Under the pieces are notes generated by a model. The model saw nothing but the letters and a program-made list of their open reading frames with translations. It made no database searches and was not told where the DNA came from. From IMG/VR virus record IMGVR_UViG_3300012348_000120: a stretch of DNA of 46,205 nucleotides. One strand, written 5' to 3'. Each line of letters begins with the position of its first letter. Positions within the stretch are counted from its first letter, which is position 1. This document shows, piece by piece, positions 4,460 to 18,532 of this stretch. Both the position numbers and the translations under genes were made by a program. This DNA comes from a virus. Taxonomy: Duplodnaviria > Heunggongvirae > Uroviricota > Caudoviricetes.

Positions 4460-5578
4460 TCACTGCTTTGGTTGGTTGCCCTGCAACGCTTCTGTAACTT
4501 CTTTGACAATTTGTTTAGCATTTTTTCCGTTCCAGTTTACATCAGACTTGAATATTTCCTGCATAGTATACTTTGTTTTCAAATAGTTCCAAGCCTTGAT
4601 ATTCTCAACCATCTGCTCAATACTTACATTTTCACCACCAAACTGTTTGTATGTAATGAAACTCATAATGTGCGATGGCGGTATGCGACCTTTATATCCA
4701 AATAGTTCGCCATGTTTCCACATACGTTCTGGATTCTTTTTCCCTTTGGTAGAATCTGGTTGGCCTTCTTCCCTGTCTTTAAATGGAAGATGCTTGTAAT
4801 CTGGGTTTGCTTGTGCTGCTTGTTTACCGTATAGATTATGTGCCACGTCAACGTCAGGCTTTATTCTGTTTTGATCTGGAACTTTGAAGTGAACAATGAT
4901 TGGAATACTGTTCATTGTCCATAGCCCACCTGATGAATGCATAGCATATCTGTGAACCAAAGATGATTTATCAGCAGCGAAAAATACATAACCAGGAGTG
5001 TGAACATCGCCGTAGTTTCCAGCTTTTTGTGGAACAATACCTTTTGACAACATAGATGCGACTGCATCAATATTTGTTCCATGCCATCCTTCTCTTGGAA
5101 GTTCGCCTCTGAATGTAGATGGGTCAGCATCTTGTCTGCTTCCTGTATCCATTTGCACACCCATAGAGAACGGACGTGGGTTGATACCAAATGCTTGCTT
5201 TATGTAAGAAGCAACTTTCTTGAACAACGGCGAAGTTTGCGGCGATTGTCCATATGTATGACGACGATATAGCAACCTTCCTTCATCCATACTGAACGCA
5301 ACTACGTCAGAACGGGTATCGCCTAAGTCCATCAATACTTCTAATGACCACCCCGCTTTTAGTTCGCTTTCATCCAATCCCATTTTTTGGCGTATGTCTG
5401 CCACAATCTGTTCTTTGTTTTCTTTCCAATCTGTTCGAGTAACTACCCAAATACTATCTGCATAGCCAAACACAACCGATCCTTCTGGAAGTTCACTACC
5501 TTGTGAAACTCGGTTCAAGCGAACTCTCATTTCAAAAAGGCCAACTCTACTTTCGGTGATGATTTCGTTTATCTTCAT
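4460..5578 (-). CDS. ADP-ribosyltransferase-fold (Tpt1/ART-like) protein, paralog 1
   Basis: WHGTN-x7-KGI, aromatic strand GYVFFAAD and IIVHFKVP; paralogous to 5828-6874. Confidence 0.55.
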   Translation of the reverse strand: MKINEIITESRVGLFEMRVRLNRVSQGSELPEGSVVFGYADSIWVVTRTDWKENKEQIVADIRQKMGLDESELKAGWSLEVLMDLGDTRSDVVAFSMDEGRLLYRRHTYGQSPQTSPLFKKVASYIKQAFGINPRPFSMGVQMDTGSRQDADPSTFRGELPREGWHGTNIDAVASMLSKGIVPQKAGNYGDVHTPGYVFFAADKSSLVHRYAMHSSGGLWTMNSIPIIVHFKVPDQNRIKPDVDVAHNLYGKQAAQANPDYKHLPFKDREEGQPDSTKGKKNPERMWKHGELFGYKGRIPPSHIMSFITYKQFGGENVSIEQMVENIKAWNYLKTKYTMQEIFKSDVNWNGKNAKQIVKEVTEALQGNQPKQ

Positions 5579-5588
5579 TTGAACTTCC

Positions 5589-5831
5589 TTATCGTATTCT
5601 GTAAGTGGTATGATAGTCTCTTATGTCGGAATGCCAAAACTTTCCTTTTGACATCGCACTTACCCATTCAGTAAACAAAGGTTTCCCAACATCAGAAACT
5701 ACATATCTTCGTCCACTGTGTAATGTCATCACAACGTCACCAGACCCGTCTTTAGCCAAACTCAAATCGTCAATCCAACTTGAAAATACGGCTTCTTCAT
5801 CCAGCATACGTTCTATTTCATTTATTTTCAT
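5589..5831 (-). CDS. KTSC-domain protein
   Basis: 80 aa with the pattern SSWI...LHSGRRY...W.SA.SKGKFW...IR..Y typical of KTSC. Confidence 0.7.
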   Translation of the reverse strand: MKINEIERMLDEEAVFSSWIDDLSLAKDGSGDVVMTLHSGRRYVVSDVGKPLFTEWVSAMSKGKFWHSDIRDYHTTYRIR

Positions 5832-6874
5832 AGGTCTTCTTCATCTTCTTCTGGTTCGAAATCAGCAATAATGTCGTCTGCACTGTAATGCAACCAGTTG
5901 TCATTTACATAATCCTGAACATCACCAAAGTTGTCAGCAACGTATACATATGCTTTCATATAGTCATTCATTTCTTCTCGGCTACGTTCTACATACCCAT
6001 CTTCTTCTGGGTATTCACTTGGTGGCATAGAGGTGGTATAGAACTCGACAAACATTGCTGGCGGTATTCTACCTTTGTAACCAAAAATTCCCATATCTTT
6101 CCATAGATTTTGAGGACGTTTTTGGTTTTTTATATAGTCATTGCCTCTTGCTGGCATAGTGGATGAGTTGCTATATTCCGAAGGCAAGTGTGGACTCCAA
6201 GAACCATACAATTCAGAAGCAACGTCATAGTCAGCAAATATTTTTGATTGGTCTGGAAGTTTGAACTTTATGATTACTGGAATGTCACTGTCTTTTGTTG
6301 CGGTTCTATGCGCATGAAATCGTGGAATACTATCGCCAACCGCAAAAAATATTGCGCCAGAAGTGTGGATATTCCCCCAGTTCCCCATATTCTGAGCGGC
6401 GATGCCTGTTTTTAGAATGCCACGCAATCTGCGAAGGCTCGTGCCATGATACCCATACTCTGGAAGTTTTCCTTTTATTTCATTTGGTGAATATGTAGAA
6501 TCAACATCACCAGCCATATTTCCATATTCTACATTTTTTATACCAAGTTGCTTCACAACTTTTTGTATAAGTTTAGACGTGACTGGATGCTGACGAAGGT
6601 CTGAGCCTTCAATAGTAAGAGTGTTGTCTATTTCGTTGTAGTTTCCAACCAATACATCTGGTCTTGCGTCAGCTATATCCGACACATTAGATGGCATCTT
6701 TCCAGCTACTTTCTGAATTTCGGTTCGAATTCCGTCATCATCGTTGTCGTATTCGTCATAGTTTACAATCCATATACTATCTTTGAATGCTATAAGCAAA
6801 TCTCCACTTTCAGTCTTGTGGCGAATAATCATTTCTGACAGCATCGTTTCTGTAATTTCACTGAATCGCATCAT
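5828..6874 (-). CDS. ADP-ribosyltransferase-fold (Tpt1/ART-like) protein, paralog 2
   Basis: YHGTS-x7-TGI, GAIFFAVG and VIIKFKLP; shares the GELFGYKGRIPP/DMGIFGYKGRIPP motif with paralog 1. Confidence 0.55.
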   Translation of the reverse strand: MMRFSEITETMLSEMIIRHKTESGDLLIAFKDSIWIVNYDEYDNDDDGIRTEIQKVAGKMPSNVSDIADARPDVLVGNYNEIDNTLTIEGSDLRQHPVTSKLIQKVVKQLGIKNVEYGNMAGDVDSTYSPNEIKGKLPEYGYHGTSLRRLRGILKTGIAAQNMGNWGNIHTSGAIFFAVGDSIPRFHAHRTATKDSDIPVIIKFKLPDQSKIFADYDVASELYGSWSPHLPSEYSNSSTMPARGNDYIKNQKRPQNLWKDMGIFGYKGRIPPAMFVEFYTTSMPPSEYPEEDGYVERSREEMNDYMKAYVYVADNFGDVQDYVNDNWLHYSADDIIADFEPEEDEEDL

Positions 6875-6892
6875 GTTTCTCCATGTTTAGTG

Positions 6893-6900
6893 TATTTATC
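6893..6900 (-). promoter_or_regulatory. Late promoter motif (GATAAATA)
   Basis: Immediately upstream of the ART-KTSC-ART operon. Confidence 0.6.
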
Positions 6901-6906
6901 AAAAAC

Positions 6907-6931
6907 AAAAGGGTGGCAAATGCCACCCTTC
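6907..6931 (-). terminator. Rho-independent terminator after aox
   Basis: AAAAGGGTGGC-aaat-GCCACCCTT. Confidence 0.8.
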
Positions 6932-6951
6932 ACTTCAATCTAACGATGAAT

Positions 6952-7551
6952 TTACTTGCTGATTAGTTCATCTGCCATTTGGTGGTTTACATCAGCATGA
7001 CCTTGCTCGTCCAACCTTACTGCTATAATTACATCCCGTAAAGTTGCATTAGGTTTCAAAGTATAGTAGTCTATTGCTATTTTTGGTGCTGGTATATTCT
7101 CTGTTCTACCAGAGTCAATTTCGTCTAAGTATTGTGTGTAACTCACAACTGCTTGGTTTTCAAAGTAACCAATCATTCGGTGTGCAGTTTTTGGAAAGAA
7201 AACATATAGAACGAAGTAGAAGTGCCAAAACACAAATTGAGCAAACAGAACCAGCAATCGTTCAAACCAGTTTGGTTTTGCAATCTCAATAAAAATCATC
7301 AGATGCATACGCTCGTTTTCTGCTTCGTCCAATAAGGTTTTGATCCATCCACGTTCATCTGGTTTCATCTTACGAAGGCTTCGCAAGTGTTGCCACATTC
7401 CAGCCACCATTCCTGGAACTCCCGCGACAGTTTCTAACACTACGGCTCTATGTCCATATCGTTTTGCAAAAAATGTATCTGCAAACCAACGGAAACTCAT
7501 AGTCAAACCGTAAGCTATTTTATCCGAAAATCCAGTAGGTGTTGGTTCCAT
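6952..7551 (-). CDS. aox: Alternative oxidase (ubiquinol oxidase, di-iron carboxylate)
   Basis: All di-iron ligand motifs are present: LETVAGVPGMV, DEAENERMHL, FENQAVVSY and RLDEQGH. Confidence 0.93.
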   Translation of the reverse strand: MEPTPTGFSDKIAYGLTMSFRWFADTFFAKRYGHRAVVLETVAGVPGMVAGMWQHLRSLRKMKPDERGWIKTLLDEAENERMHLMIFIEIAKPNWFERLLVLFAQFVFWHFYFVLYVFFPKTAHRMIGYFENQAVVSYTQYLDEIDSGRTENIPAPKIAIDYYTLKPNATLRDVIIAVRLDEQGHADVNHQMADELISK

Positions 7552-7612
7552 TTATTGGCATAAATCCTCATATTTTGATTGATGCACTCTGTGCATACTT
7601 CTATCACCTGAA

Positions 7613-7620
7613 TATTTATC
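7613..7620 (-). promoter_or_regulatory. Late promoter motif (GATAAATA) upstream of aox
   Basis: Same motif as the other intergenic copies. Confidence 0.6.
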
Positions 7621-7659
7621 CAACGAAAGTAGTTTGAGTATATACTTCATCTGATTCTT

Positions 7660-8008
7660 TCTAAGTTGTGGTGTGAGTGTCACCGTTTCTGTTTCGAGGT
7701 AGGTGACCCACCCAAGTAGATTAGGCAGCTAGTGCGTAAGCTACAGGAGCAAAGTTTTCGTTTGCATTTAGTTTTTTGGCTGAATAACGTAGGCCAACAC
7801 GGTAATCTCCACTTGCTTTCAACACCTGTCGATCCTATTTCGAGCCCATCAAAGATACACTTCCTACATTTCGTAGTTGCGTCTAACTGCCTTTGACTGT
7901 CCATACGGTTAGACCTAGTTTTCGTATGCGTCATCAAAGTGTATCTGTGGTGGACCCGCTGGGTACTGCCCCCAGGTCCAGAATGTCTATCGTCTGCTTC
8001 AACGATTA
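7660..8008 (-). ncRNA. ssrA: Circularly permuted (two-piece) tmRNA, alphaproteobacterial type
   Basis: Order on the minus strand: T-arm CTGGG-GGCAGTA-CCCAG plus CGGGTCC-ACCA (CCA ends 7948); 100-nt intervening segment; 5' acceptor strand GGGCTCG-AAATAGGATCGAC (starts 7847) giving G3.U70; pk1-like TTGGC/GCCAA; resume context TAAAT-GCA; tag ANENFAPVAYALAA* (7765-7721). Outer boundaries are approximate. Confidence 0.92.
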
Positions 8009-8014
8009 CAATAC

Positions 8015-8045
8015 TATTTATGCCACAATGTTGATCAAATGTCAA
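8015..8045 (-). promoter_or_regulatory. tmRNA promoter (TTGACA-17-CATAAA, overlapping a CATAAATA late motif)
   Basis: -35 at 8040-8045 and late-type element at 8015-8022. Confidence 0.55.
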
Positions 8046-9406
8046 GAAAAACTTGAACGATTGCTAACATAATTTTCCACACAAACCTTTTTTTTGTTGT
8101 AAAATTCCTCTGTGTAGAAATCAACATGACGAATATGTATCATATCTTTCCAGTCATACCCAACTCCACCAAACATACTAAGCGCAAATGCAGCCAAGGT
8201 TGTTCGGTTTTGATTCTGTATTCTAAACTCATCTGCTATGTTATTTGCAGTGTCTAAGTTCCATATGCCATTTTCCCAATAACTATCATCATGAGGAAAA
8301 ACGAAACCGTATTTTTCTGCGTTCACGGCAAACTCGGACTTCTTTGAACTCAGATCAAGACCTATGAAATAACCGTTCAAATCATTATCTTGTAGCCATT
8401 TGTTATCATCTCGTAGTTGCTGCGGGGTTTGACCAGGCAAACCAGCGATGAACCCCATTTCCCAGTTTATATCTGGATACCACTGTTTTTTCAGATGCAG
8501 TAAAAATTCTTTTCCATGTTGACCGCTCCATCCTTTTCCAATTAATTTTGAACTCTGCGTCTCAAAGGATTCTATTCCAAAAAAGCAACTTCTCATTCCG
8601 CTTTTTCGTAATGAGTTTATCATAGATGGATACCGCCAAATTAAATCCGCTCTACAATACCCAACCCATTCTAACTCAAACGGCATTCTTTTGGCAATGC
8701 TGACTAACGCCTCAACTTTCTCTTCGCTTTCGTTTACTGTGTCATCAACATAGCTAAACCGAGTTACACCAAAATTCTCATAATAATACAGTATTTCTTG
8801 TTCTACTATATTAAAGTTACGAAGGTAAGTTCCTGGCCTTTTGCCTATCAGTCTATAATCACAAAACTTGCATTTGAATTTGCAACCCCGTCCTAATTCA
8901 ATAGGCAAAACCTCAGTCGGCAATATGGCATCGTTTTTAGTGAATACGGTTCCTGCTGTCTTAATGTCAAATTGACTATGGGTCAAATTGAAAAATATTG
9001 ACAAGTCTTCTTCTGCAAAGCTCTCAAACTTTATCCACGATTCATCAAACAAATGTGTTTTATGCCCGCCGACTATCCATTTTATTTTAGGATATTCATT
9101 TTCAATTTCTGATTTGTTGCTGTATAGCCACTGTGGATGTTTTTCAGAATCCTTAATGAAGGTAGAACTTACTCCGATATATTCTGTTTCGTCGGTGATA
9201 AAACTTTTGGTAAGATGCAGTAATTGATCTTGCGACATTGAATTGGCGAAATCAATAACGATTGTATTGAAATTGTGTTGTCTCAACCAACTCGCGATTC
9301 GATGCGGCCCCAAATACCTACTGAAATGAGCGCCATTATTATTGACAGTAAAACGATTGTCGTCAAAATTTGAACTCGTTATATTCCATATGATAAACTT
9401 TGCCAT
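8042..9406 (-). CDS. Cobalamin-binding radical SAM protein (class B methyltransferase-like)
   Basis: CxxxCxxC (ELGRGCKFKCKFC); N-terminal B12-binding-like domain (GPHRIAS, YIGVSSTF, IVGGH); FFGIESF and FIAGLPGQT. Confidence 0.85.
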   Translation of the reverse strand: MAKFIIWNITSSNFDDNRFTVNNNGAHFSRYLGPHRIASWLRQHNFNTIVIDFANSMSQDQLLHLTKSFITDETEYIGVSSTFIKDSEKHPQWLYSNKSEIENEYPKIKWIVGGHKTHLFDESWIKFESFAEEDLSIFFNLTHSQFDIKTAGTVFTKNDAILPTEVLPIELGRGCKFKCKFCDYRLIGKRPGTYLRNFNIVEQEILYYYENFGVTRFSYVDDTVNESEEKVEALVSIAKRMPFELEWVGYCRADLIWRYPSMINSLRKSGMRSCFFGIESFETQSSKLIGKGWSGQHGKEFLLHLKKQWYPDINWEMGFIAGLPGQTPQQLRDDNKWLQDNDLNGYFIGLDLSSKKSEFAVNAEKYGFVFPHDDSYWENGIWNLDTANNIADEFRIQNQNRTTLAAFALSMFGGVGYDWKDMIHIRHVDFYTEEFYNKKKVCVENYVSNRSSFS

Positions 9407-9420
9407 CTTAATGCCAACAG

Positions 9421-9585
9421 TCAGTCAAAATGGTTCCAACTCGATGGAGCATTTTTGACATCGCCATACTTGCGCAAGAATTCGTCAACTGCTTTTTCAC
9501 GATCAAATTTTTCTTCTTTCGGTGGAACGTTGGAAGACTTTTCTTTCTTTCGTTTCACTTTGGATATGAGGTCTGTTATTTTCAT
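9421..9585 (-). CDS. Small basic protein (54 aa, MKITDLISK...), missed by the ORF track
   Basis: Hand-translated ATG 9585 to TGA 9421, with a late motif upstream at 9613-9620. Confidence 0.55.
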   Translation of the reverse strand: MKITDLISKVKRKKEKSSNVPPKEEKFDREKAVDEFLRKYGDVKNAPSSWNHFD

Positions 9586-9612
9586 ATGGCAGCTTTCCTA
9601 TTTTATTATGGG

Positions 9613-9648
9613 TATTTATCGTAAACCAGACAAATTCAAGCATAAATA
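9613..9648. promoter_or_regulatory. Divergent pair of late promoter motifs
   Basis: GATAAATA on minus (9613-9620) and CATAAATA on plus (9641-9648). Confidence 0.6.
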
Positions 9649-9668
9649 TTAGTACAGAAGGTGGCAAT

Positions 9669-10199
9669 ATGATACACAAAGAAATAGATATTAAAATTGA
9701 TATTCAACAATTACTTGACGATGTTACAAAAATCAGTAATGTCGCGGGATGGAAATTAAATCAAATAGCACTTCAATATCACAATGAAATTGACTGGCAC
9801 TCTGGTGTTGGTAAATCTGACTTTTTAAGTGGCAACGAAGAAGAATACATTCATTACCATCCATTTTTAGACGGAATGTATATTAAAGAATTACTAGAAA
9901 GTTTTGATTTTCCAGTCGCACATTCAAGAATTATGCTATTACCTCCCAAGACTTGCTATACTACCCATGTAGATTATTATACACGGTATCATATTCCAGT
10001 GACAAGTAAACCACTTCAAACGTTTATGTTATTCCCAGACAAAGGTGAAATTCTTAGAATGTATCCAGGAAAAGCATATTGGACAAATACGTATGAATTG
10101 CATAATTTTGTCAATGGAACGTATGAAGATAGAATACATATTGTTTTTAACAGCGCATTAGAAAAAAAGAACCTTGACAATCCATATTTGAGTATGTAA
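9669..10199 (+). CDS. Asp/Asn beta-hydroxylase-like 2OG-Fe(II) oxygenase
   Basis: RIMLL..CYTTHVD (HxD), distal LHNFVNG and RIHIVF. Confidence 0.8.
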   Translation: MIHKEIDIKIDIQQLLDDVTKISNVAGWKLNQIALQYHNEIDWHSGVGKSDFLSGNEEEYIHYHPFLDGMYIKELLESFDFPVAHSRIMLLPPKTCYTTHVDYYTRYHIPVTSKPLQTFMLFPDKGEILRMYPGKAYWTNTYELHNFVNGTYEDRIHIVFNSALEKKNLDNPYLSM

Positions 10200-10200
10200 A

Positions 10201-10770
10201 ATGATAGTATGTGAAAAAATTAATGTAGATTTTGATTTCAACAGATTACTGGCAGAATCATTAGATATTATAAATGATATTGGCTGGCATAATGATCAGA
10301 TTTCTTTGCAATATAGTAATGTAGTTGATAGTTGGACTGATGATGTTGATCACTATGGGTATACAAGAAAAGAACACGAATGTGTGAATTGGAATAGTAA
10401 GCTAAATAATTCATACATAAAAGAGGTGATTGAAAGTATTCATCCATATGTATCAAGTGCCAGAATAATGAAATTGCCTGGGCCTGGTTGTTATATAACA
10501 CACGTTGACTTGTATACTAGATTTCAAATTCCACTCATTTTGGACCCGCTAAAAAGCTATATGATTTGGCCAGAGCACAGTCTGGTTGTTCCGTTAAAAC
10601 CTGGCGAAGCCTATTATTGTAATACCCATGAAATACACAATTATGTAAATGGCGAATACGAAGACCGAATAAATATAATTTTTAACGATGCAAGAGAACA
10701 GCCATATTTGGACAATCCGCACATCGACCGACTTTTCAAAAACTTCATAGAGGATATGAAATGGAAATAA
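10201..10770 (+). CDS. Asp/Asn beta-hydroxylase-like 2OG-Fe(II) oxygenase (close paralog of the previous gene)
   Basis: CYITHVD, IHNYVNG and EDRINIIF. Confidence 0.8.
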   Translation: MIVCEKINVDFDFNRLLAESLDIINDIGWHNDQISLQYSNVVDSWTDDVDHYGYTRKEHECVNWNSKLNNSYIKEVIESIHPYVSSARIMKLPGPGCYITHVDLYTRFQIPLILDPLKSYMIWPEHSLVVPLKPGEAYYCNTHEIHNYVNGEYEDRINIIFNDAREQPYLDNPHIDRLFKNFIEDMKWK

Positions 10771-11534
10771 CACTACATGGGAAATTGAAAGATATAAAAA
10801 ATGCTCCTGCATTTGATCACTCCTGTAATCCACGATGCGAACCTGAAAGAGCAGTTCATCCCGCAGCAAAAAAGTTACTATACGTTCCTCACTACAACGT
10901 GGCAAGAGGAATTGACATTGATGTTGACCAAGTAAACCGAGAGATTGAAGTTGCGAACCAAGGTAAATGGGCAAGCTACAACAACGATGTTAAGGGACAG
11001 CGCGGGGCTGGTTTGAGCACCTATTGGAACGCTCGTATGCTACGAAATTTTGTTCCAGATAGTGAATTTGGGTTTGGAGAAACGCTAGACTACCTAGAGC
11101 AAATTGGGCGTCAAGATGAAGTTCATAACGGAAGAGTTCCACCTAGCTCTCTGACCGCAACACCGTTGTTTCACGAAGTGCCATACCTTGTCAGTCTCAT
11201 AGAACGATTTGTAACAATAGAGATGTGCGACCGAATTATGATTTCTCGTGTTGAACACAATCAGAGAATTAACTGGCACAGCCATAATTACTATGAAAAA
11301 ACATACTCACACGCCTATCTTCATATCCCGTTGCGCACAAATGTTGGAACTGAAATGTTAGTGTATATGGATGATACGCTACACCGACAGCATTATGGAG
11401 TTGGTGAAGCATGGGTAATAAACACACAACACAACCATGCTGTAAATAACAAGATAAACGGCGAAGATCGTTATCACATTTTAATACTAGCAAATTTTGA
11501 GGATAAAAAATTTAATGAATTACTTTTGGGTTAA
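10761..11534 (+). CDS. Asp/Asn beta-hydroxylase-like cupin oxygenase with HxH in place of HxD
   Basis: RIMISRV..INWHSH, LHIPL, HNHAVNN and DRYHIL. Confidence 0.7.
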   Translation: MEITLHGKLKDIKNAPAFDHSCNPRCEPERAVHPAAKKLLYVPHYNVARGIDIDVDQVNREIEVANQGKWASYNNDVKGQRGAGLSTYWNARMLRNFVPDSEFGFGETLDYLEQIGRQDEVHNGRVPPSSLTATPLFHEVPYLVSLIERFVTIEMCDRIMISRVEHNQRINWHSHNYYEKTYSHAYLHIPLRTNVGTEMLVYMDDTLHRQHYGVGEAWVINTQHNHAVNNKINGEDRYHILILANFEDKKFNELLLG

Positions 11535-11982
11535 TCCAAATACACAGGTCAAAGAAAGCAGTGTCCATGGACTATGCAGATACGCAACCACACGAGTAAA
11601 AAAAGGTGACGTAATATTTGTGGCTGGCGGCGTTGCTATAAACAATCAAGAAACCACTTGGTATAAAGGCTTGCTTATAGACAAGGATTACGTTCTTGAT
11701 TTGCCAGTCGGAAGCGAATACGAGGCTTACGTGAATCATAGCTGTGATCCAAATTGTTACATAGACGGTCAGATAGTGTTTCGTGCTCTTCGGGACATTG
11801 ACGAAGGCGAATTCATTACAGTTGACTACGGAACATTTTTCCTGACCAAGAAAAATCCAATTGATCCTTGTAAATGTGGTGCTGAAAAATGCAGAGGCAA
11901 AGTGACTGGCGAAGACTACAAGACGTTGGACTTGCCTCTTAGTTGGTATGCACAGAAAAAACTAAAAAGCGAAAGTAGTTGA
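11514..11982 (+). CDS. SET-domain methyltransferase with post-SET cysteines
   Basis: SSVHGLCRYA, YVNHSCDPNC, ALRDIDEGEFITVDYG and CKCGAEKCRG; start taken at ATG 11514. Confidence 0.85.
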
Positions 11983-12563
11983 TAGAACGCATGACACTGT
12001 TGACAACGGGAAATCCAAAATATGGATTGGCATCTGCAATAAAGTATGTATTGGGTGGAGACTTTTCAAGTAGGTCTTCTGGCATCGATTTGGAAACAGA
12101 TGATGGGATGGATGCGTTTGTTGAAAAAAGTATGGCTTACTCACAAGTCATACTAAATTGCTATACAGAAAAAATGAACAATTATAGTCAAGCCAGACTA
12201 CTTCATAAAATTTACATCAAGTGGGTTGAAGAAAATAAGAGTGGTCAAATTGTATGTATCGGCAGTATTAGCGATCACATACACAAAGAACAACCTTGGC
12301 TAAAATACGTAAGTTATGGCGCAGAAAAATTAGCACTCAAAAATCTATGCCAGACCATCAATCACAACAGAGATAGTGTTTCTCCAAAGATACGATGCAC
12401 CTATATAAGTTTAGGTCATATGCACACTCCATACGTTGATCGACTTCATCCTGATGAAGTAAAATTAAAAACTGAAAGCGTGGCTGATGTGATAAAATTC
12501 ATATTGCACCATCAAGAATGCATAGAAGAAATAACACTGACCAAGGATAAAACAAATGGATGA
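11979..12563 (+). CDS. Short-chain dehydrogenase/reductase-like protein
   Basis: TTGNPKYGLA Rossmann-like start, IVCIGSIS and YxxxK (YGAEK); TTG start. Confidence 0.65.
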   Translation: MIERMTLLTTGNPKYGLASAIKYVLGGDFSSRSSGIDLETDDGMDAFVEKSMAYSQVILNCYTEKMNNYSQARLLHKIYIKWVEENKSGQIVCIGSISDHIHKEQPWLKYVSYGAEKLALKNLCQTINHNRDSVSPKIRCTYISLGHMHTPYVDRLHPDEVKLKTESVADVIKFILHHQECIEEITLTKDKTNG

Positions 12564-13308
12564 TTACATATATGCATTTGAAATGAAATACAACAGAGAG
12601 TATTTGTTTGACACAGTTAGACAAATAACTCACTGGCCTGCGTATGCCGATCCAAACACTGCATTCAAAACATCACACCGAGATATTCTGTTTCCAATCG
12701 ATATGGAAGCAATCAAAATAAAAAATTCAATATTGACTTCTACTACATACAGTTTTAGTGTAGTTCCACCTGGTCATGAAACTGGATGGCATACGGATAA
12801 AAACCGAGGATGCACTCTTATACTCCCAATAAATCCAGAACCTCATTTGATAAAATTCAATGTAGATGAAAACATCATAGATTATTACTATGATGGGCCA
12901 GTCATAACAAATGCAAAAACATTACACAATGGAATAAATCATACTGATGTAAATCGTTATAATCTTTTGTTTCATTTTGATTTGCCATATCATGATGTAA
13001 TGGACTTAATAAAAAATAACAATCTAATTGATGATTGGAAACAGACTTACGACATTGCGTTATTTTATGATTCGCCTATGATTTCAGAATACTTCAACAC
13101 TACTACTGATATTGAGAATGCATCAATATTGATTACGGACGATATTGAATTGGCTAATTCATATGAGAATAGAAAGTTCATAATATTCATCGGAGATAGC
13201 AACAAAAAATTCGTTGAAGTAATAGGCAAAAATCACAATGAAATAATAAAAACAATCAAATTCATTCTTGATTGCCCATTTAAAATAAAATCTGTTGTAT
13301 TGGAGTAA
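12556..13308 (+). CDS. 2OG-Fe(II) oxygenase with a C-terminal extension
   Basis: TGWHTD, distal LHNGIN and RYNLLF. Confidence 0.7.
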   Translation: MDDYIYAFEMKYNREYLFDTVRQITHWPAYADPNTAFKTSHRDILFPIDMEAIKIKNSILTSTTYSFSVVPPGHETGWHTDKNRGCTLILPINPEPHLIKFNVDENIIDYYYDGPVITNAKTLHNGINHTDVNRYNLLFHFDLPYHDVMDLIKNNNLIDDWKQTYDIALFYDSPMISEYFNTTTDIENASILITDDIELANSYENRKFIIFIGDSNKKFVEVIGKNHNEIIKTIKFILDCPFKIKSVVLE

Positions 13309-13310
13309 GT

Positions 13311-13889
13311 ATGTTTACGTTTGATTCAAGTATAATAAAGTTTGACTTGCAAAATGAAGAAATATACAAATATCTTTTTTCCGCTGAATGGAGAAAGTCA
13401 GTTATAGATGATGGGTATCATAATTATGGCGGCTTCACAGATGTATTGAAAACGCCTTCTAACAAAGTATTCAATACAGGAAATTACTGCATTGGCGACA
13501 AGCATACCGATTTAGTTGATAGACAGTTCAAAGAAATGTTTGGATGCTTTGTTGAGAGTCACTACATCAGTATTCTTCCAATGTGCAAAGTTGGTGAGCA
13601 CTATGACATATATGATGCAGATGACGAAACTGTGAATGCAACAGAGAATGACTTCATTAACACCAGCATACTATATCCAGTGTTTGGAGATATTGACGTA
13701 ACTGGAAATGGAGTTACAAGACGTTTGATGCCAAACGTATTTACAGTGATTGATACTTCTAAGCTGCATGACGGAATGAATTTAAATAAATCGCTGTCTT
13801 GGTGCACCAGTTCATTATGCTATAATATAACATATTTGGAAGTAAAAGAAAAATTAAAAGACTTTATAGTGGAAGATTTAGATGAGTGA
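13311..13889 (+). CDS. 2OG-Fe(II) oxygenase-like protein
   Basis: VGEHYD and distal LHDGMN. Confidence 0.6.
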   Translation: MFTFDSSIIKFDLQNEEIYKYLFSAEWRKSVIDDGYHNYGGFTDVLKTPSNKVFNTGNYCIGDKHTDLVDRQFKEMFGCFVESHYISILPMCKVGEHYDIYDADDETVNATENDFINTSILYPVFGDIDVTGNGVTRRLMPNVFTVIDTSKLHDGMNLNKSLSWCTSSLCYNITYLEVKEKLKDFIVEDLDE

Positions 13890-14427
13890 ATTATATACAT
13901 TTTTGCCAGAATTAAAAGTTGATCTTGCCGATATTACAAAAACAATTGAAGATAAAAATGGTTGGGTTGAAATAACACCAGAAAAAGAAAACCATGGATA
14001 TGTTCAATACTATAAGAATTATCAACCAGAATGGCTTACGTCACAGCTTCTTCCTATTTGGAGTTATATGGGTCTACTCATAGCGTGTAGAGCGGGCGAG
14101 TATTTAATTCCACATGTGGATACTGGCAGAACAAGTGGCATACTTATTCCTTGCACAAACAGCTATACTGAGAATACATTGGACTTTTGGGATATTCCTG
14201 CGTGGGATGGGACAATTGGAAAACAAGAAAAATTCCATGACTATAGTGATGGCAAGATAATAGATCAAGTTCTATATACCTCCCCCATACTATTTAAAAA
14301 TGTGCCACATGGAGTAGACAACCGAAACAGCACAGACGGTAGAATTAATCTGAGTGTATGCTTTATGGAACCATACACATATGAAGTCGTAAAATCACTA
14401 TATGAAAAGGGACTGTTGATAAGATAA
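13882..14427 (+). CDS. 2OG-Fe(II) oxygenase-like protein
   Basis: LIPHVD, distal PHGVDN and RINLSV. Confidence 0.7.
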   Translation: MSELYTFLPELKVDLADITKTIEDKNGWVEITPEKENHGYVQYYKNYQPEWLTSQLLPIWSYMGLLIACRAGEYLIPHVDTGRTSGILIPCTNSYTENTLDFWDIPAWDGTIGKQEKFHDYSDGKIIDQVLYTSPILFKNVPHGVDNRNSTDGRINLSVCFMEPYTYEVVKSLYEKGLLIR

Positions 14428-15197
14428 TGAAAGAATATTGGAATGACTTTTTGCCTGGTCCGCTCCCTCTACCACAGTATAGAAAAAACTTGCCCTATTT
14501 TCTATCACAGTCTGAGAAAACCTCATTCGAAGAAGCCCTGAAGGTCCAACCTACCGATTGGAAATACAGAACCAAGCCAATAAGATACGATCTAAATAGA
14601 TCAGACTACCGAACAAAAGAATGGGATATGATTGATTGGGGGCAAGCAATAGTTGTTCTTGGTTGCTCACACGTGTTCGGAGAAGGAAATTCAATAGACG
14701 AAACACTGTGTCACCAACTTGAAAAAATTACTGGACATGATGTAGTCAATTTGGGAGTCACTGGTAGTAGTCCGCTATTCAGTTGGCACAACAGTCTTAT
14801 TCTCAACAAGAAATACCCAACTCCATATGCGGTAGTTCAGGTATGGTCCAGTCCATCCAGAATACCATACTACGCTGAAACCATATGCAAAAGAATTGGA
14901 CCTTGGAGTGGATCAATATGGGATGAGTATGACACTTCTGCAAAAAACTTGTTTGAACTATGGAATGAATCAGAATCTCACACCTATAATAGTTTGTATT
15001 TCACATCGGAAGCAAGTCAAGTGTTCTGGTCAGACAAAACAAGATATGCACAAGGTAGTTACTTTAAAGACGTATCCGACTTTTTGAATATTTCTTTCTA
15101 TCAAGAGATAGATTTGGCAAGAGATTTAATTCACTATGGAGAAATGACACACCGAATTGCCGCAGAAGATATTGCGACTCAAATAGAAAGAATGTAA
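14427..15197 (+). CDS. SGNH-like hydrolase family protein
   Basis: VVLGCSHVFGEG (Ser in block I), VNLGVTGSS and C-terminal DLIHYG (DxxH). Confidence 0.65.
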   Translation: MKEYWNDFLPGPLPLPQYRKNLPYFLSQSEKTSFEEALKVQPTDWKYRTKPIRYDLNRSDYRTKEWDMIDWGQAIVVLGCSHVFGEGNSIDETLCHQLEKITGHDVVNLGVTGSSPLFSWHNSLILNKKYPTPYAVVQVWSSPSRIPYYAETICKRIGPWSGSIWDEYDTSAKNLFELWNESESHTYNSLYFTSEASQVFWSDKTRYAQGSYFKDVSDFLNISFYQEIDLARDLIHYGEMTHRIAAEDIATQIERM

Positions 15198-15198
15198 A

Positions 15199-15708
15199 TT
15201 GAAAATTGCAATTACAGGCCATACCAAAGGATTAGGAAAAACAATATGCGATATTCATGGACAACATAATATCGTTGGATTTTCAAGATCAAATGGATTT
15301 GATATAACTGTGAAAGAACACAGAGAAAGAATGATAGACCTTTCGCAAGACTGCGATGTTTTTATCAATAATGCGTATGATAAGTTTGGCCAAATAGAAT
15401 TGCTATACGATCTTTATGGCAATTGGAAAAACAAGAACAAGACGATTGTAACCATAGGAAGCTATGCATCAAATGCTGCCGAATGGAGATTACAACCATG
15501 TTTATACAGCACAGTGAAAAAAGCATTAGACGTAGTTACGTATCAATTAGTAAACAGCCATGATAGAAATGGCTGCAAATTGATGATATTTAAACCAAGT
15601 TATATTGGAGATGGGGAAAACAAAATACCATATCAATTTGCAGCGAAATATTTGCTTGATGCGATAAAAAATAACACACATCAAACGATTGAGTTAGTTT
15701 TAAGATAA
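15199..15708 (+). CDS. Short-chain dehydrogenase/reductase
   Basis: IAITGHTKGLG, DVFINNA, IVTIGS and YSTVK; TTG start. Confidence 0.8.
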   Translation: MKIAITGHTKGLGKTICDIHGQHNIVGFSRSNGFDITVKEHRERMIDLSQDCDVFINNAYDKFGQIELLYDLYGNWKNKNKTIVTIGSYASNAAEWRLQPCLYSTVKKALDVVTYQLVNSHDRNGCKLMIFKPSYIGDGENKIPYQFAAKYLLDAIKNNTHQTIELVLR

Positions 15709-16362
15709 AACCTGATTCCTAATGTCGTCTGTAATCTCGCCATTGTGTTCAATGTAAATTATTGTATCATGAGTTGGTTTCCAACTAAACCCTTCCTCCA
15801 ATATATTTGCATACACATATTGTAACAGATCACTTTTTTTGCTGACCTTAAAAATCATATTCGGTTGTATCTTAAAAGACTGATAGGTTTCTGTCATAAA
15901 ATACGGAACTGCATCGCCACGAAATGGCATCTTTTTCTTGTGTTGATACATTGCATTCAACGCCTTATTATTGACATTATGTGTCCAGTATAAGACTTTC
16001 AGCCCTTGTTGTTTTGCCCAAGATACCTGCTTTTCTAACATTCTGAATCCTGCGTTGCTATGGCGGAACTTTTTAAGAATGTGATACCTACATATTCTTC
16101 CAGCAATATCTGGATCACCAGTGTAGTGACTTCTTTCCACTACACTGATACTTGCAAGTTCATCGCCAACAAATGTCATCCAAGTCTGCCCGTTCAAATT
16201 GTCTGGATCATACTTTTCGTAACTTAAAGAATCATTGCCTTCTGCAAATGTCTGTTGTCTGAAATCCTCAATCGCTTGTCTATAACTTGGATCATACTCC
16301 ACGACATAGACGTTTTCATAAACTACTATGTCCAAATTTACATTTGTCTCTACGTTGCTCAT
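15700..16362 (-). CDS. GNAT-family acyl/acetyltransferase
   Basis: RYHILKKFRHSNAG acetyl-CoA-binding-like motif A, then WAKQQG and NKALNAMY. Confidence 0.65.
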   Translation of the reverse strand: MSNVETNVNLDIVVYENVYVVEYDPSYRQAIEDFRQQTFAEGNDSLSYEKYDPDNLNGQTWMTFVGDELASISVVERSHYTGDPDIAGRICRYHILKKFRHSNAGFRMLEKQVSWAKQQGLKVLYWTHNVNNKALNAMYQHKKKMPFRGDAVPYFMTETYQSFKIQPNMIFKVSKKSDLLQYVYANILEEGFSWKPTHDTIIYIEHNGEITDDIRNQVLS

Positions 16363-16389
16363 TCTTCTGTCCTTGTTGTTTGAGGTATA

Positions 16390-17010
16390 TTATACTTCAA
16401 AATTTTCAACGTCTGCTTGTCCGTCAAGACTAAACATAAGAGCGATGCGTGGCTTGTCACTTCTGTTAAAGACTGCGTGTGGATAAGCAATATTTAAAAA
16501 GTATGCATTTCCTGGTTTTAGAATGTATTCTTCAATTTGACCATCTCGCTTAAACTGATTAATAACCAAGTCGTCAGAATAAATTGGGCAGATACAACGA
16601 ACTGCGTAACTTACGTCATAGTCAACATGAAATGGGATTTCTTTTCCTGCTGCCAGTTTTGTAATACGAACTCTACTCGCAGGAGCCTTGCACTGATTTA
16701 CAATATTCTCAAACACGCTGCCTATGAACTCTTCTGTTGGAACATTATACAAATGTTCTTCCTTGCGACGAAGGCGTTCTTTTACGTTGTCAGTGTATGG
16801 TAGAATTTTGCTTGGCTTTGTCAAGTTAATCTGTTCAAAGTTGTCGTATACTTGCTCAACTAATGCCATATGATTATCACAGAGCATCGGATTCGCGGTG
16901 CGAACATCAACAAATTTGGCGGCAAGCGCGTCTGTCTCTCTTTGCAATCTTTCTAAATCAATGTCAAGATTTAAATTTGCAATCGTTGGAAGTTGGTGTT
17001 TTTTCTTCAT
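16390..17010 (-). CDS. Asp/Asn beta-hydroxylase-like 2OG-Fe(II) oxygenase
   Basis: RVRITKL..IPFHVD, PHAVFN and RIALMF. Confidence 0.85.
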   Translation of the reverse strand: MKKKHQLPTIANLNLDIDLERLQRETDALAAKFVDVRTANPMLCDNHMALVEQVYDNFEQINLTKPSKILPYTDNVKERLRRKEEHLYNVPTEEFIGSVFENIVNQCKAPASRVRITKLAAGKEIPFHVDYDVSYAVRCICPIYSDDLVINQFKRDGQIEEYILKPGNAYFLNIAYPHAVFNRSDKPRIALMFSLDGQADVENFEV

Positions 17011-17765
17011 AGTTTATATATCCCTGATAAGCAAAGTCTTGCTATGTTGTTTTTTCTTCTGAATTTCTGATAATCGTCATGAGTGGATGTGGCCAACCAA
17101 ACACTATCACTTGGAACCGCATCCAATTCTTGACAGACCATCTTTTGTTGATTTTTAAACATATTATGTATGTAGTTAATACCGTAACTATTTATGATTT
17201 TTTCTGCCACATGATGGGCATTGTAGTTGTAATACTTGGCGTTGTAAGTTAAATCATGAAGTCGTTTATCTTCTTTACGAGTGAATATCCATCCTGTTCG
17301 TATGTTTCGGACACCAAATGGTTTACTCAAACTGTAAAACACATATTCAATATTATCTGTCATTGGAATTTGACGAACTTCTGTGCTTCCTACATATGCC
17401 AAATCTAATGCAACTGGCATATGTGTGGGGATATTTACGAAATTTCCATCAATAGAACTTGGACATGACATATATAAAATGTCTCCGTTACCACTCTTTG
17501 GCTGAACCCATTGATAGTCTCCCTTCTCAATATGAATTGATCGGGATTCATTTGCCATCCACCAGTTCAGTCCTTCTGTGATTCCATTGACAGGATACAC
17601 GAAAAACATTGATAGGTCAATGACTGGACTCAACCACTCCTTGATGTTTGTTTTGTAGTGTTCTACACTGTCATAATCAAATTCAAGAGACGAGAGTGTG
17701 TTTCTAACTTCGGGTAGGCAAGGAGTTCTAATCGCGGTTGACAGGCTTAGTATTGAGTCTTTCAA
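17007..17765 (-). CDS. PLP-dependent (fold type I) aminotransferase/decarboxylase-like protein
   Basis: DLAY and FYSLSKPFG (PLP lysine); probable TTG start at 17765 behind a GGAGG SD, overlapping the desaturase 3' end. Confidence 0.65.
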   Translation of the reverse strand: MKDSILSLSTAIRTPCLPEVRNTLSSLEFDYDSVEHYKTNIKEWLSPVIDLSMFFVYPVNGITEGLNWWMANESRSIHIEKGDYQWVQPKSGNGDILYMSCPSSIDGNFVNIPTHMPVALDLAYVGSTEVRQIPMTDNIEYVFYSLSKPFGVRNIRTGWIFTRKEDKRLHDLTYNAKYYNYNAHHVAEKIINSYGINYIHNMFKNQQKMVCQELDAVPSDSVWLATSTHDDYQKFRRKNNIARLCLSGIYKL

Positions 17766-18477
17766 TAAACCATCCTCCCATATCAAACTCCCACCATCTG
17801 TCTTTAAATGACCATTTATTAGGATGAGCATGGTGATTGTTATGCCAGCCTTCTCCCCACATCAAATATCCAAGTGCATAAATGTTTGTGCTGTCGTCAC
17901 TTGTGTTATGATTACGATACCCAATCATATGTGTCAGTGTGTTAATGAAACTTCCTGCATTCCACAAAATAGCTGCTGGAAGCAGATACGCACTCACTAA
18001 CAGCATCGGATCAATAATGAACCATAGCACGAAGATGCCGAGATGAAGCAACATATAATTTTTATGCAGGAAAGTATGAAATTCACTACGCAATAAATGT
18101 GCGGCATACTTTGGCTTTGGTTTGTCAAACATACTTAGCCACTGAACATGAAAGAATCCTTTGTGCTTTGGACTATGGGGGTCACCTTCGCCATCCGTAT
18201 GGTGATGATGCTCTCTGTGTATAGCAACCCATCCAATACTACTTCCAGTCAAGCCATATGTGCCAGCGAGTGTTCCAAAGTATTCAAACCAGAATGGTGG
18301 TTCCCAACTTTTGTGCGAAAGCAACCGATGGTATGTCATGGTCATACCAAAACAACCTGTGATGAAATATACAAAAAACGATATGATCCAATGATACCAT
18401 TCGCCATATATTATCATTGGAATTATACTTAGGTGTGCTATGATTTGAGCAAAAAGAAGTCTATATGGAGTAATCAT
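17728..18477 (-). CDS. Membrane acyl-CoA (delta-9-type) fatty acid desaturase
   Basis: His boxes YHRLLSH, HREHH and HNNHH; GEGWHNNHH motif; hydrophobic segments. Confidence 0.92.
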   Translation of the reverse strand: MITPYRLLFAQIIAHLSIIPMIIYGEWYHWIISFFVYFITGCFGMTMTYHRLLSHKSWEPPFWFEYFGTLAGTYGLTGSSIGWVAIHREHHHHTDGEGDPHSPKHKGFFHVQWLSMFDKPKPKYAAHLLRSEFHTFLHKNYMLLHLGIFVLWFIIDPMLLVSAYLLPAAILWNAGSFINTLTHMIGYRNHNTSDDSTNIYALGYLMWGEGWHNNHHAHPNKWSFKDRWWEFDMGGWFIERLNTKPVNRD

Positions 18478-18532
18478 TTAAAGGTAATTATCTTTCTGAA
18501 TAAAATACAATTCAATACTACCACAAATTGTA

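What the first reader, a model, noticed from the sequence alone, without database searches (positions are those of the whole stretch)
7660..8008. Phage-encoded circularly permuted (two-piece) tmRNA
Seen in the sequence: every tmRNA hallmark is present on the minus strand in permuted order. The T-arm (CTGGG/CCCAG, loop GGCAGTA) and CGGGTCC-ACCA come first. GGGCTCG at 7847 then pairs 7/7 with CGGGTCC, including the G3.U70 alanyl determinant. It is followed by a pk1-like element, TAAAT-GCA and the tag ANENFAPVAYALAA*. Established: permuted tmRNAs are characteristic of Alphaproteobacteria (and a few other lineages), a C-terminal AA is the ClpXP degron, and some phages carry one-piece tmRNAs. Inference: the phage took a host-type permuted ssrA and expresses it from its own promoter (sigma70 -35 plus a late motif). 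This could keep ribosome rescue working or redirect tagging during infection. No smpB lies in this window, so host SmpB is presumably used.
Basis: partly seen in the sequence, partly recalled or inferred. Interest (0 to 1): 0.85.

Follow-up and report, generated by a model that had tools for sequence, protein, structure and literature searches.

The report
Phage-borne two-piece tmRNA gene
A large uncultured freshwater phage carries a complete, rearranged ("two-piece") gene for tmRNA, the RNA that frees stalled ribosomes and tags the unfinished protein for destruction; the gene is real and looks functional, but phage genes of this kind have been described before.

Summary
ARAGORN calls a permuted tmRNA at 7630-8043 (-) with the tag ANENFAPVAYALAA. 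Two Rfam models match well above their cut-offs: tmRNA_permuted 120 bits, alpha_tmRNA 113 bits.

Alignment with relatives from viral contigs shows compensatory changes in the acceptor stem, T arm, both P2 helices, PK1 and the 3' hairpin. The tag codons vary mostly at third positions, so the peptide is under selection.

The surrounding DNA is a jumbo phage of the PA5oct/Atu_ph07/Phosso kind, and its DNA is found in freshwater metagenomes. I found no smpB in the window, in the 137-kb contig of its closest relative, or in phage Phosso.

The interpretation needs two corrections:
- Phage two-piece tmRNAs are already published (Melnitz and 53 phage genomes, PMC9004378; huge phages, PMC7162821; Sinorhizobium jumbo phage AP-J-162, PMC11242549). 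This scan has also noted them many times on other DNA.
- The gene is not a recent host copy. It sits in an all-viral clade, scores far below tmRNAs from alphaproteobacterial genomes, and has no close match in 401 alphaproteobacterial genomes.

Expression and processing could not be tested. Verdict: new member of a known kind, modest interest.

The parts
8015..8045 (-). Promoter: -35 TTGACA (8045-8040), 17-nt spacer, then TG-n-CATAAATA (8025-8015). This reads both as an extended -10 and as the phage ATAAATA motif. The stop codon TGA (8044-8042) of the upstream radical-SAM ORF lies inside the -35.
   Evidence: Sequence. It is the only TTGACA-N15-19-ATAAATA in the window, with 0.03 expected. ATAAATA occurs 24 times against 14.8 expected, mostly just upstream of genes. 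The same TTGACA...TATAAATA layout precedes the tmRNA in relatives.
7948..8010 (-). Acceptor piece, about 63 nt. It holds the outer P2 strand 8009-8004, the inner P2 strand 7987-7979, the T arm 7975-7959, the acceptor 3' strand 7958-7952, discriminator A 7951 and CCA 7950-7948. The 5' end is inferred from the promoter spacing and the start of the Rfam match.
   Evidence: Compensatory changes in P2, T arm and acceptor stem.
7848..7947 (-). 100-nt intervening segment, presumably excised. A 10-14-bp closing stem brings the CCA end next to G1. The conserved UGAU leader (7851-7848) can pair with ACCA in the precursor.
   Evidence: Fold -24.2 kcal/mol, z -3.1. The two ends pair in 75 of 79 distinct phage spacers: mean 11.1 end-to-end pairs against 2.95 in shuffles. 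RNAalifold pairs 60-63 with 187-190 and 65-75 with 175-185, with many compensatory changes.
7668..7847 (-). Coding piece, about 180 nt. It holds the acceptor 5' strand GGGCUCG 7847-7841, the inner P2 strand 7828-7821, the outer P2 strand 7807-7802, PK1 7801-7776, the tag frame 7765-7724 (ANENFAPVAYALAA), stop 7723-7721, and a 3' hairpin 7713-7670 with the conserved loop ACCUCGAAACAGAA. The 3' end is inferred from where conservation with relatives stops.
   Evidence: Codon-periodic variation of the tag.
6952..7551 (-). Alternative oxidase (AOX) gene directly downstream. No terminator separates it from the tmRNA, so it may be co-transcribed. It also has its own GATAAATA motif at 7620-7613. The same tmRNA-AOX neighbourhood occurs in three viral contigs.
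   Evidence: Pfam PF01786, 268 bits. No terminator-like site between the tmRNA and AOX. AOX lies next to the tmRNA in L006 (96% aa), L026 (87%) and L013 (84%).
6908..6931 (-). Intrinsic terminator-like hairpin after AOX, the first on this strand downstream of the tmRNA promoter.
   Evidence: 10-bp stem with 6 G-C pairs, followed by a T run.

Best explanation
This is a functional two-piece (circularly permuted) tmRNA gene of the alphaproteobacterial structural type. It is carried by a jumbo phage and belongs to a tmRNA lineage that circulates in phages.

Inferred course of events:
1. One promoter (TTGACA plus TG-n-CATAAATA) drives a precursor.
2. In the precursor the acceptor stem, an ACCA/UGAU pairing and the closing stem of the 100-nt spacer stack into one stalk.
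3. Host RNase P cuts 5' of G7847, and 3' trimming exposes CCA at 7948.
4. This leaves an acceptor piece of about 63 nt and a coding piece of about 180 nt, held together by the acceptor stem and two P2 helices.
5. Host AlaRS charges the RNA through G3.U70 and A73.
6. Host SmpB and EF-Tu deliver it to ribosomes stalled on broken mRNAs.
7. Translation resumes at GCA and adds ANENFAPVAYALAA.
8. The terminal LAA sends the product to ClpXP, which this phage lineage also encodes.

The net effect would be more ribosome rescue and amino-acid recycling during infection.

Shown here: the gene, its structure with covariation, selection on the tag peptide, the phage context, and no smpB among the window ORFs scanned. 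Inferred: transcription, processing, charging, and the benefit to the phage.
For: - Two independent programs call it.
- RNAalifold on 12 related viral sequences predicts 65 pairs, 31 of them with compensatory double changes. It recovers outer and inner P2, the T arm, the acceptor stem, the precursor stalk and the 3' hairpin.
- The acceptor stem covaries across viral contigs: GGGGGCG, GGGCUCG, GGGCCCG, GGGGUCG, GGGGCCG and GGGGACG, each with its matching 3' strand.
- The outer T-stem shows 12 different fully complementary combinations in 106 distinct genes. Inner P2 is 88.5% paired against 68% after shuffling.
- The second stem of PK1 is kept with five different sequences in 9 of 12 relatives.
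- In the tag frame the last two Ala codons use all four GCN codons. Third-position entropy is 1.8-1.95 bits against 0.3-0.4 at positions 1 and 2.
- Phage context: DnaB-like helicase, primase, DNA helicase, methylase, and tail and virion PHROGs. The DnaB is 50-53% identical to PA5oct-like phages, Phosso and Atu_ph07. The closest tmRNA (89% nt) is on a 137-kb IMG/VR contig with the same AOX neighbour.
- ClpX occurs in Phosso, Atu_ph07 and PA5oct. ClpP occurs in those three and in the relative's contig.
Against: - There is no direct evidence of transcription or processing. No public RNA run holds this gene; only conserved pieces of relatives' tmRNAs were found, and only as contigs.
- No SmpB was found in the window ORFs scanned, the relative's contig or Phosso, so function depends on an unknown host's SmpB accepting this RNA.
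- The host is unknown.
- The alpha_tmRNA score is low for the family.
- The 3' end of the coding piece is not marked by a terminator.
Confidence: 0.85

Rival explanations
1. Recent capture of the host's own ssrA. On this reading the gene is essentially a host-type copy and reports the host's identity as an alphaproteobacterium.
For: The structural type is alphaproteobacterial. The tag resembles bacterial alpha tags such as ANDNFAPVALAA. The cultured relatives Phosso and Atu_ph07 infect Alphaproteobacteria. Earlier notes of this scan report CcrM-type GANTC sites in the phage's promoters (not tested here).
Against: - The window's gene falls in a 78-row all-viral clade (SH-aLRT 96). The 38 bacterial sequences form a separate group (98) with one small viral contig inside it.
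- The alpha_tmRNA score is 113 bits, against about 158-313 bits for nearly all of 151 sampled Alphaproteobacteria.
- BLAST against 401 alphaproteobacterial genomes gave only 30-50-nt matches of the universal core, apart from a 62-nt and a 178-nt match on contigs of the contaminated bin G001.
- The tag pattern AN[DE]N[FY][AV]PxxYALAA occurs in only 2 of 185,579 species genomes. Both are 35%-GC contigs in bins that carry several extra alpha-type tmRNAs and look like mis-binned phage DNA.
- Melnitz shows that a phage's tmRNA type need not match its host.
Confidence: 0.08
2. The RNA is made but serves the phage in a way other than general ribosome rescue. It might tag host nascent chains selectively for the phage's own ClpXP, titrate host SmpB away from the host tmRNA, or act as a sensor of stalled ribosomes.
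For: The phage lineage encodes ClpX and ClpP. Phage tags are on average two residues longer than bacterial ones and mostly end in [YFM]ALAA. Buchholz et al. propose selective degradation of host proteins.
Against: Nothing in the sequence separates this from ordinary trans-translation. All canonical elements are kept under selection. The degron LAA is the ordinary ClpX signal (established knowledge).
Confidence: 0.12
3. A decaying or hitch-hiking copy, such as a remnant of an integration site, with no function for the phage.
For: tmRNA genes are common prophage integration sites, and fragments occur in phage genomes (stated in PMC9004378). No expression data exist.
Against: The gene is complete, not a 3' fragment. 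It has a consensus promoter. Structure and tag are maintained by compensatory and synonymous changes across many phages. No integrase domain turned up in the window ORFs scanned.
Confidence: 0.03

Closest known systems
Two-piece tmRNA (ssrA) of Methylophilales phage Melnitz and related marine T4-like myophages (Buchholz et al. 2022, PMC9004378)
   Same: Phage-borne, permuted and alpha-type. Similar Rfam scores (113 and 107 bits). Similar tag (ANDNYVPVDYALAA against ANENFAPVAYALAA). Long stem-closed spacer (142 nt). Own promoter, and followed by a protein gene without an intervening terminator. Same all-viral clade in my tree.
   Different: - Melnitz is a 141-kb T4-like myophage of a marine OM43 host. 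This phage is a PA5oct/Atu_ph07-like jumbo phage found in freshwater.
- Melnitz has a glutamine riboswitch and the late-transcription coactivator gene downstream. Here there is no riboswitch and the downstream gene is an alternative oxidase.
- Only 22% of the 501-nt query centred on the gene aligns, at 74% identity.
tmRNA of Sinorhizobium jumbo phages AP-J-162 (PMC11242549) and Phosso (PV764938)
   Same: Same broad jumbo-phage group: DnaB 52% identical to Phosso, with ClpX and ClpP present. Phosso has a permuted alpha-type tmRNA scoring 113 bits, with the same short post-tag hairpin and ACCUCGAAACAGAA loop. No SmpB in the complete Phosso genome.
   Different: - Phosso's spacer is about 410 nt and its tag is ANDNVSTKVALAA.
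- In my tree Phosso does not group with the window's gene.
- In the Phosso record the gene lies in a 750-bp gap with no annotated feature.
- AP-J-162's tmRNA is listed only in a table and is not described as permuted.
Bacterial two-piece tmRNA of Alphaproteobacteria (Rfam RF01849; Keiler, Shapiro and Williams 2000, as cited in PMC9004378)
   Same: Gene order (acceptor piece, spacer, coding piece), G3.U70, the T loop GGCNGUA, P2, PK1, resume codon GCA, an ANDN-type tag ending in LAA, and the ACAGAA 3' motif.
   Different: - Lower score: 113 bits against about 158-313.
- It lacks the 5' hairpin of the model, and about 40 nt after the stop codon that many alpha tmRNAs have. Stop to ACAGAA is 27 nt here. 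In bacteria it is about 34-37 or 68-72 nt.
- Longer spacer: 100 nt, against a bacterial median of 28.
- Tag two residues longer than the bacterial median.

Membership tests
tmRNA, two-piece (circularly permuted) type | Scores above the curated threshold of a covariance model of the family | tested here: met
   RF04321 scores 120.1 bits (cut-off 47) and RF01849 scores 112.6 bits (cut-off 50), both full length. ARAGORN flags it as permuted.
tmRNA, two-piece (circularly permuted) type | tRNA-like domain: 7-bp acceptor stem with G3.U70, discriminator A and an encoded CCA, plus a T arm | tested here: met
   GGGCUCG pairs with CGGGUCC, followed by ACCA. The stem covaries across viral contigs. The outer T-stem pairs covary in 12 complementary combinations. 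U70 was fixed by my search pattern, so its invariance among the hits is not evidence.
tmRNA, two-piece (circularly permuted) type | Permuted gene order: the CCA-bearing 3' half comes first, then a spacer, then the 5' acceptor strand and the coding part | tested here: met
   ACCA ends at 7948, upstream of G1 at 7847 on the minus strand.
tmRNA, two-piece (circularly permuted) type | P2 pairing that holds the two pieces together | tested here: met
   Outer P2 is 8009-8004 with 7807-7802. Inner P2 is 7987-7979 with 7828-7821. Both show compensatory changes.
tmRNA, two-piece (circularly permuted) type | Pseudoknot PK1 upstream of the resume codon | tested here: met
   Stem CGUG/UACG, with loop UUGGC pairing with GCCAA. 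The second stem is kept with five different sequences in 9 of 12 relatives, read by eye from the alignments. Three relatives have a different arrangement that I could not resolve.
tmRNA, two-piece (circularly permuted) type | Tag reading frame that starts at an Ala resume codon and ends in a hydrophobic degron plus a stop codon, under selection as a peptide | tested here: met
   The frame GCA...GCC TAA encodes ANENFAPVAYALAA. In 97 distinct phage tag frames the variation is concentrated at third codon positions.
tmRNA, two-piece (circularly permuted) type | Transcribed, cut into two RNAs, charged with alanine, and active with SmpB | not testable with these tools
   No public RNA run holds this gene. 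The runs available are contigs, which cannot show RNA ends.
Phage-encoded (rather than bacterial) gene | Lies inside phage DNA, among phage genes, and not at a prophage border | tested here: met
   Phage replication, tail and virion genes lie across the 46-kb window. The nearest relatives are jumbo phages. A relative with the same neighbours sits on a 137-kb IMG/VR contig. No integrase domain was found. No whole bacterial genome is held for the window.
Self-sufficient trans-translation module (tmRNA plus SmpB), as reported for some huge phages (PMC7162821) | An smpB gene in the phage | tested here: not met
   - No PF01668 hit in the window ORFs of 100 aa or more that I scanned with Pfam.
- Eight of the larger ORFs had only a PHROGs scan, which gave other identities or none.
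- None in the relative's 137-kb contig or in the complete Phosso genome.
- The rest of this phage's genome could not be read.

The most novel reading that the evidence does not exclude
Alpha-type two-piece tmRNAs in phages form a lineage of their own, passed between unrelated phages (T4-like marine myophages, freshwater and soil jumbo phages) rather than copied from each host. In jumbo phages that also encode ClpX, ClpP and ClpS, the tmRNA may be the tagging arm of a phage-owned pathway. That pathway would mark products of broken host mRNAs with a phage-type ...[YF]ALAA tag and feed them to the phage's own protease.
Probability: 0.2. Interest if true: 0.6.

Novelty: new member of a known kind. 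Interest (0 to 1): 0.3.

Why it matters
The gene adds one more large phage to the list of those that bring their own ribosome-rescue RNA. It shows that the same phage tmRNA lineage reaches from marine T4-like phages to freshwater jumbo phages.

Three points may be useful beyond this case:
- These RNAs cluster apart from the sampled bacterial tmRNAs, so they are poor host predictors.
- In the precursor the CCA end appears to pair with a conserved UGAU leader, on top of a stem-closed spacer. This is a testable model of how two-piece tmRNAs are cut.
- The gene co-occurs with phage ClpX and ClpP, which suggests a phage-owned tag-and-degrade route.

None of this has been tested at the bench.

Tried and rejected
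- Expression and processing. Two searches of public runs found the DNA in freshwater metagenomes of 16 studies, but no RNA run holds this gene. RNA contigs laid on the stretch matched only conserved parts of other tmRNAs. One such contig ends 3-4 nt before the position equivalent to G1. Contigs cannot show RNA ends, so I do not count this.
- Glutamine riboswitch, as in Melnitz. None was found at E up to 1 in 6800-9600.
- The 121-codon ORF 7680-8045 (-) that covers the tmRNA, and an AUG in the spacer that opens the same frame. The frame is not kept in the closest relative, whose spacer is 22 nt shorter and which gives two separate tblastn pieces. I take it to be spurious. No conserved small gene lies in this spacer, unlike those noted elsewhere in this scan.
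- tmRNA in close cultured relatives. None was found in Atu_ph07, PA5oct or Vibrio phage 2.275.O; the RF00023 hits there are tRNA-sized and below the cut-off.
- Near-identical phage genome. None in 50,697 phage records by megablast.
- Reduced 3' domain as a phage-only trait. Rejected, because some bacterial alpha tmRNAs are nearly as short after the stop codon.
- Host identification from the tmRNA. Not possible, because there is no close bacterial match.
- Formal pair counting for PK1. Not run, because the MAFFT alignment is out of register there. The covariation was read by eye.
- Structure prediction of protein complexes. Not used, because no binding claim is made.

Full report
**1. The observation**

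ARAGORN reports a single gene in the 46-kb window: a permuted tmRNA at 7630-8043 on the minus strand, with the tag ANENFAPVAYALAA. Rfam gives two full-length matches well above their curated cut-offs:
- tmRNA_permuted RF04321: 120.1 bits, E 5e-23, at 7721-8010.
- alpha_tmRNA RF01849: 112.6 bits, E 5e-30, at 7678-8049.

- T arm CUGGG/CCCAG with loop GGCAGUA, 7975-7959.
- Acceptor 3' strand CGGGUCC 7958-7952, then ACCA 7951-7948.
- GGGCUCG 7847-7841, which pairs 7/7 with that strand, including G3.U70 and a second wobble pair U5.G.
- Resume codon GCA 7765-7763 after UAAAU, and stop TAA 7723-7721.

**2. Anatomy**

*Promoter.* TTGACA lies at 8045-8040, followed by a 17-nt spacer and TG-n-CATAAATA at 8025-8015. 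This is the only place in the window where a consensus -35 is joined to the ATAAATA motif (0.03 expected). ATAAATA itself occurs 24 times against 14.8 expected, mostly 20-30 nt upstream of gene starts. It is therefore plausibly a phage promoter element, and the tmRNA promoter looks like a hybrid of host-type and phage-type signals. The stop codon of the upstream radical-SAM ORF lies inside the -35 hexamer.

*Acceptor piece.* The usual spacing puts the transcription start at about 8010, exactly where the Rfam match and the outer P2 helix begin. The acceptor piece (about 8010-7948, 63 nt) may therefore need no 5' processing.

*Spacer.* The 100-nt spacer (7947-7848) folds with a 10-14-bp closing stem (z -3.1).

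*Coding piece.* It runs from G7847 to about 7668 and carries:
- the inner P2 strand (7828-7821) and the outer P2 strand (7807-7802);
- PK1 (7801-7776), with stem CGUG/UACG and loop UUGGC pairing with GCCAA;
- the tag frame;
- a 13-bp hairpin (7713-7670) whose loop ACCUCGAAACAGAA is conserved.

*Downstream.* No terminator follows the coding piece. The next gene, 6952-7551, is an alternative oxidase (Pfam PF01786, 268 bits). The first terminator on this strand is at 6931-6908.

**3. Is it more than a look-alike?**

ARAGORN finds permuted tmRNAs in 74 of those 120 contigs (75 loci when the window itself is counted), and in Melnitz as well. My own parser finds 112 in all among the viral contigs and phage records. 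Four lines of evidence across these point to a working gene.

*Helices covary.*
- The acceptor stem covaries: GGGGGCG, GGGCUCG, GGGCCCG, GGGGUCG, GGGGCCG and GGGGACG, each with its matching partner.
- The two outer T-stem pairs occur in 12 different complementary combinations.
- Inner P2 is 88.5% paired, against 68% after shuffling partners.
- RNAalifold on the 12 nearest sequences predicts 65 pairs, 31 with compensatory double changes. It recovers both P2 helices, the T arm, the acceptor stem and the 3' hairpin.

*PK1 is kept.* Its second stem is kept with five different sequences in 9 of 12 relatives, read by eye.

*The tag is selected as a peptide.* In 97 distinct tag frames the terminal Ala-Ala codons use all four GCN codons. 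Third-position entropy is 1.8-1.95 bits, against 0.3-0.4 at the first two positions.

*The spacer is conserved in structure, not sequence.* Its ends pair in 75 of 79 distinct spacers. The alignment also pairs ACCA with a conserved UGAU just before G1. In the precursor, the acceptor stem, this short pairing and the spacer stem would form one continuous stalk.

**4. Context**

The window is phage DNA:
- DnaB-like helicase, primase, a second helicase, DNA methylase, and tail-fibre-like and virion proteins.
- DnaB is 50-53% identical to PA5oct-like Pseudomonas jumbo phages, Sinorhizobium phage Phosso and Agrobacterium phage Atu_ph07.
- No near-identical phage record exists, and no bacterial genome is held for the window.
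- The closest tmRNA (89% nt, same tag) is on a 137-kb IMG/VR contig. That contig has the same AOX gene next door (96% aa identity), and two more viral contigs share this pairing.

The DNA occurs in freshwater metagenomes from 16 studies, so this is a freshwater phage.

No SmpB domain was found in the window ORFs of 100 aa or more that I scanned with Pfam. Eight of the larger ORFs had only a PHROGs scan, which gave other identities or none. None was found in the relative's contig or in the complete Phosso genome.

The lineage does encode the protease that reads the tag. A ClpX zinc finger is found in Phosso, Atu_ph07 and PA5oct. ClpP is found in those three and in the relative's contig. I could not read that stretch.

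**5. Origin**

The evidence points instead to a phage-borne lineage:
- On the alpha_tmRNA model, 151 evenly sampled Alphaproteobacteria score about 158-313 bits, with one reduced 0.5-Mb genome at 123. The window scores 113, like Melnitz (107) and Phosso (108).
- BLAST of the gene against 401 sampled alphaproteobacterial genomes finds only 30-50-nt matches of the universal core, apart from a 62-nt and a 178-nt match on contigs of the contaminated bin G001. Viral contigs match over 350-420 nt at 77-89% identity.
- The tag pattern AN[DE]N[FY][AV]PxxYALAA occurs in only 2 of 185,579 species genomes. Both are 35%-GC contigs in bins that carry several extra alpha-type tmRNAs, and they are most likely mis-binned phage DNA.
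- In a quick maximum-likelihood tree of 109 viral and 38 bacterial sequences, the window lies in a 78-row all-viral group (SH-aLRT 96) that includes Melnitz. The bacteria form a separate group (98) holding one small viral contig.

Caveats on the tree: the bacterial sample is anonymous and limited, the tree is unrooted and short, and Pelagibacterales may be under-sampled. Buchholz et al. place Melnitz's gene near SAR11 and its phages.

Compared with the sampled bacteria, phage genes have longer spacers (median 86 against 28 nt) and longer tags (14 against 12 residues). A short post-tag region is not unique to phages.

**6. What is known**

- Buchholz et al. 2022 (PMC9004378) describe Melnitz's two-piece ssrA. 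They count 53 two-piece tmRNAs in phage genomes, 50 of them aquatic.
- Al-Shayeb et al. 2020 (PMC7162821) list tmRNAs and SmpB among huge-phage translation genes.
- The Sinorhizobium jumbo phage AP-J-162 is reported with one tmRNA, and Atu_ph07 with none (PMC11242549). This agrees with my searches.
- This scan already holds over 400 notes on phage permuted tmRNAs in other genomes.

The gene is therefore a new member of a known kind.

**7. Mechanism and verdict**

The most likely mechanism is ordinary trans-translation run with host RNase P, AlaRS, EF-Tu and SmpB. It would raise rescue capacity when infection produces many broken mRNAs, and the tagged products would go to ClpXP of phage or host origin (confidence 0.85).

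Less likely readings:
- a specialised tagging, decoy or sensor role (0.12);
- a recent host capture (0.08);
- a functionless passenger (0.03).

Expression, processing and charging remain untested. Interest is modest (0.3). The points worth keeping are the phage-only clade, the precursor stalk model and the link to phage ClpXP.

Noticed in passing
Locus L136 = PV764938.1 (Sinorhizobium phage Phosso) 349596-350198, minus strand: Phosso, a cultured 469-kb jumbo phage, has a permuted alpha-type tmRNA: RF04321 113 bits, tag ANDNVSTKVALAA, spacer of about 410 nt. It lies in a 750-bp gap with no annotated feature, and ARAGORN misses it.
   Followed up: partly
window 6952-7551 (-), with GATAAATA at 7620-7613 and a terminator at 6931-6908: An intact alternative oxidase gene (PF01786, 268 bits) lies directly downstream of the tmRNA with no terminator between them. 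The tmRNA-AOX pairing recurs in viral contigs L006, L013 and L026, with 84-96% aa identity.
   Followed up: partly
window 8042-19462: A dense block of tailoring-type enzyme genes: radical SAM, five Asp/Arg-hydroxylase-like cupins, a SET domain, short-chain dehydrogenase-like proteins, GNAT, a fatty-acid desaturase and a nucleotide-sugar epimerase. The product is unknown.
   Followed up: no
window 21166-21888 (-): An ORF with a Zeta-toxin/AAA_33 kinase-like N-terminal part and a PGP-phosphatase-like C-terminal part. It may be a polynucleotide kinase-phosphatase-like repair enzyme rather than a toxin.
   Followed up: no
window 24691-25473 (-): The N terminus matches Mtd_N, the N-terminal domain of the major tropism determinant of diversity-generating retroelement phages. 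No retroelement was looked for.
   Followed up: no
window 25486-26175 (-) and about 50 viral loci (for example L001 4637-5206): A 229-aa protein with no Pfam hit has homologues within 1-2 kb of the tmRNA in about 50 of the viral contigs. In Melnitz the homologue is annotated as a PDDEXK nuclease. In this window it lies 17 kb away from the tmRNA.
   Followed up: no
G001 (Rhodobacteraceae bacterium Water_Bin34) and G002 (Verrucomicrobiales MAG CPC23); loci L122-L131: Two metagenome bins hold 8 and 3 alpha-type tmRNA matches. All but one are weak, on low-GC contigs, and one sits next to a phage-type gene. These bins look contaminated with phage contigs.
   Followed up: partly
window 4460-5578 and 5828-6874 (-): Two paralogous ORFs match the same uncharacterised family, phrog_11974. 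One has a faint PARP-like hit (E 0.006), in line with another first-reader note that calls them ADP-ribosyltransferase-fold proteins.
   Followed up: no
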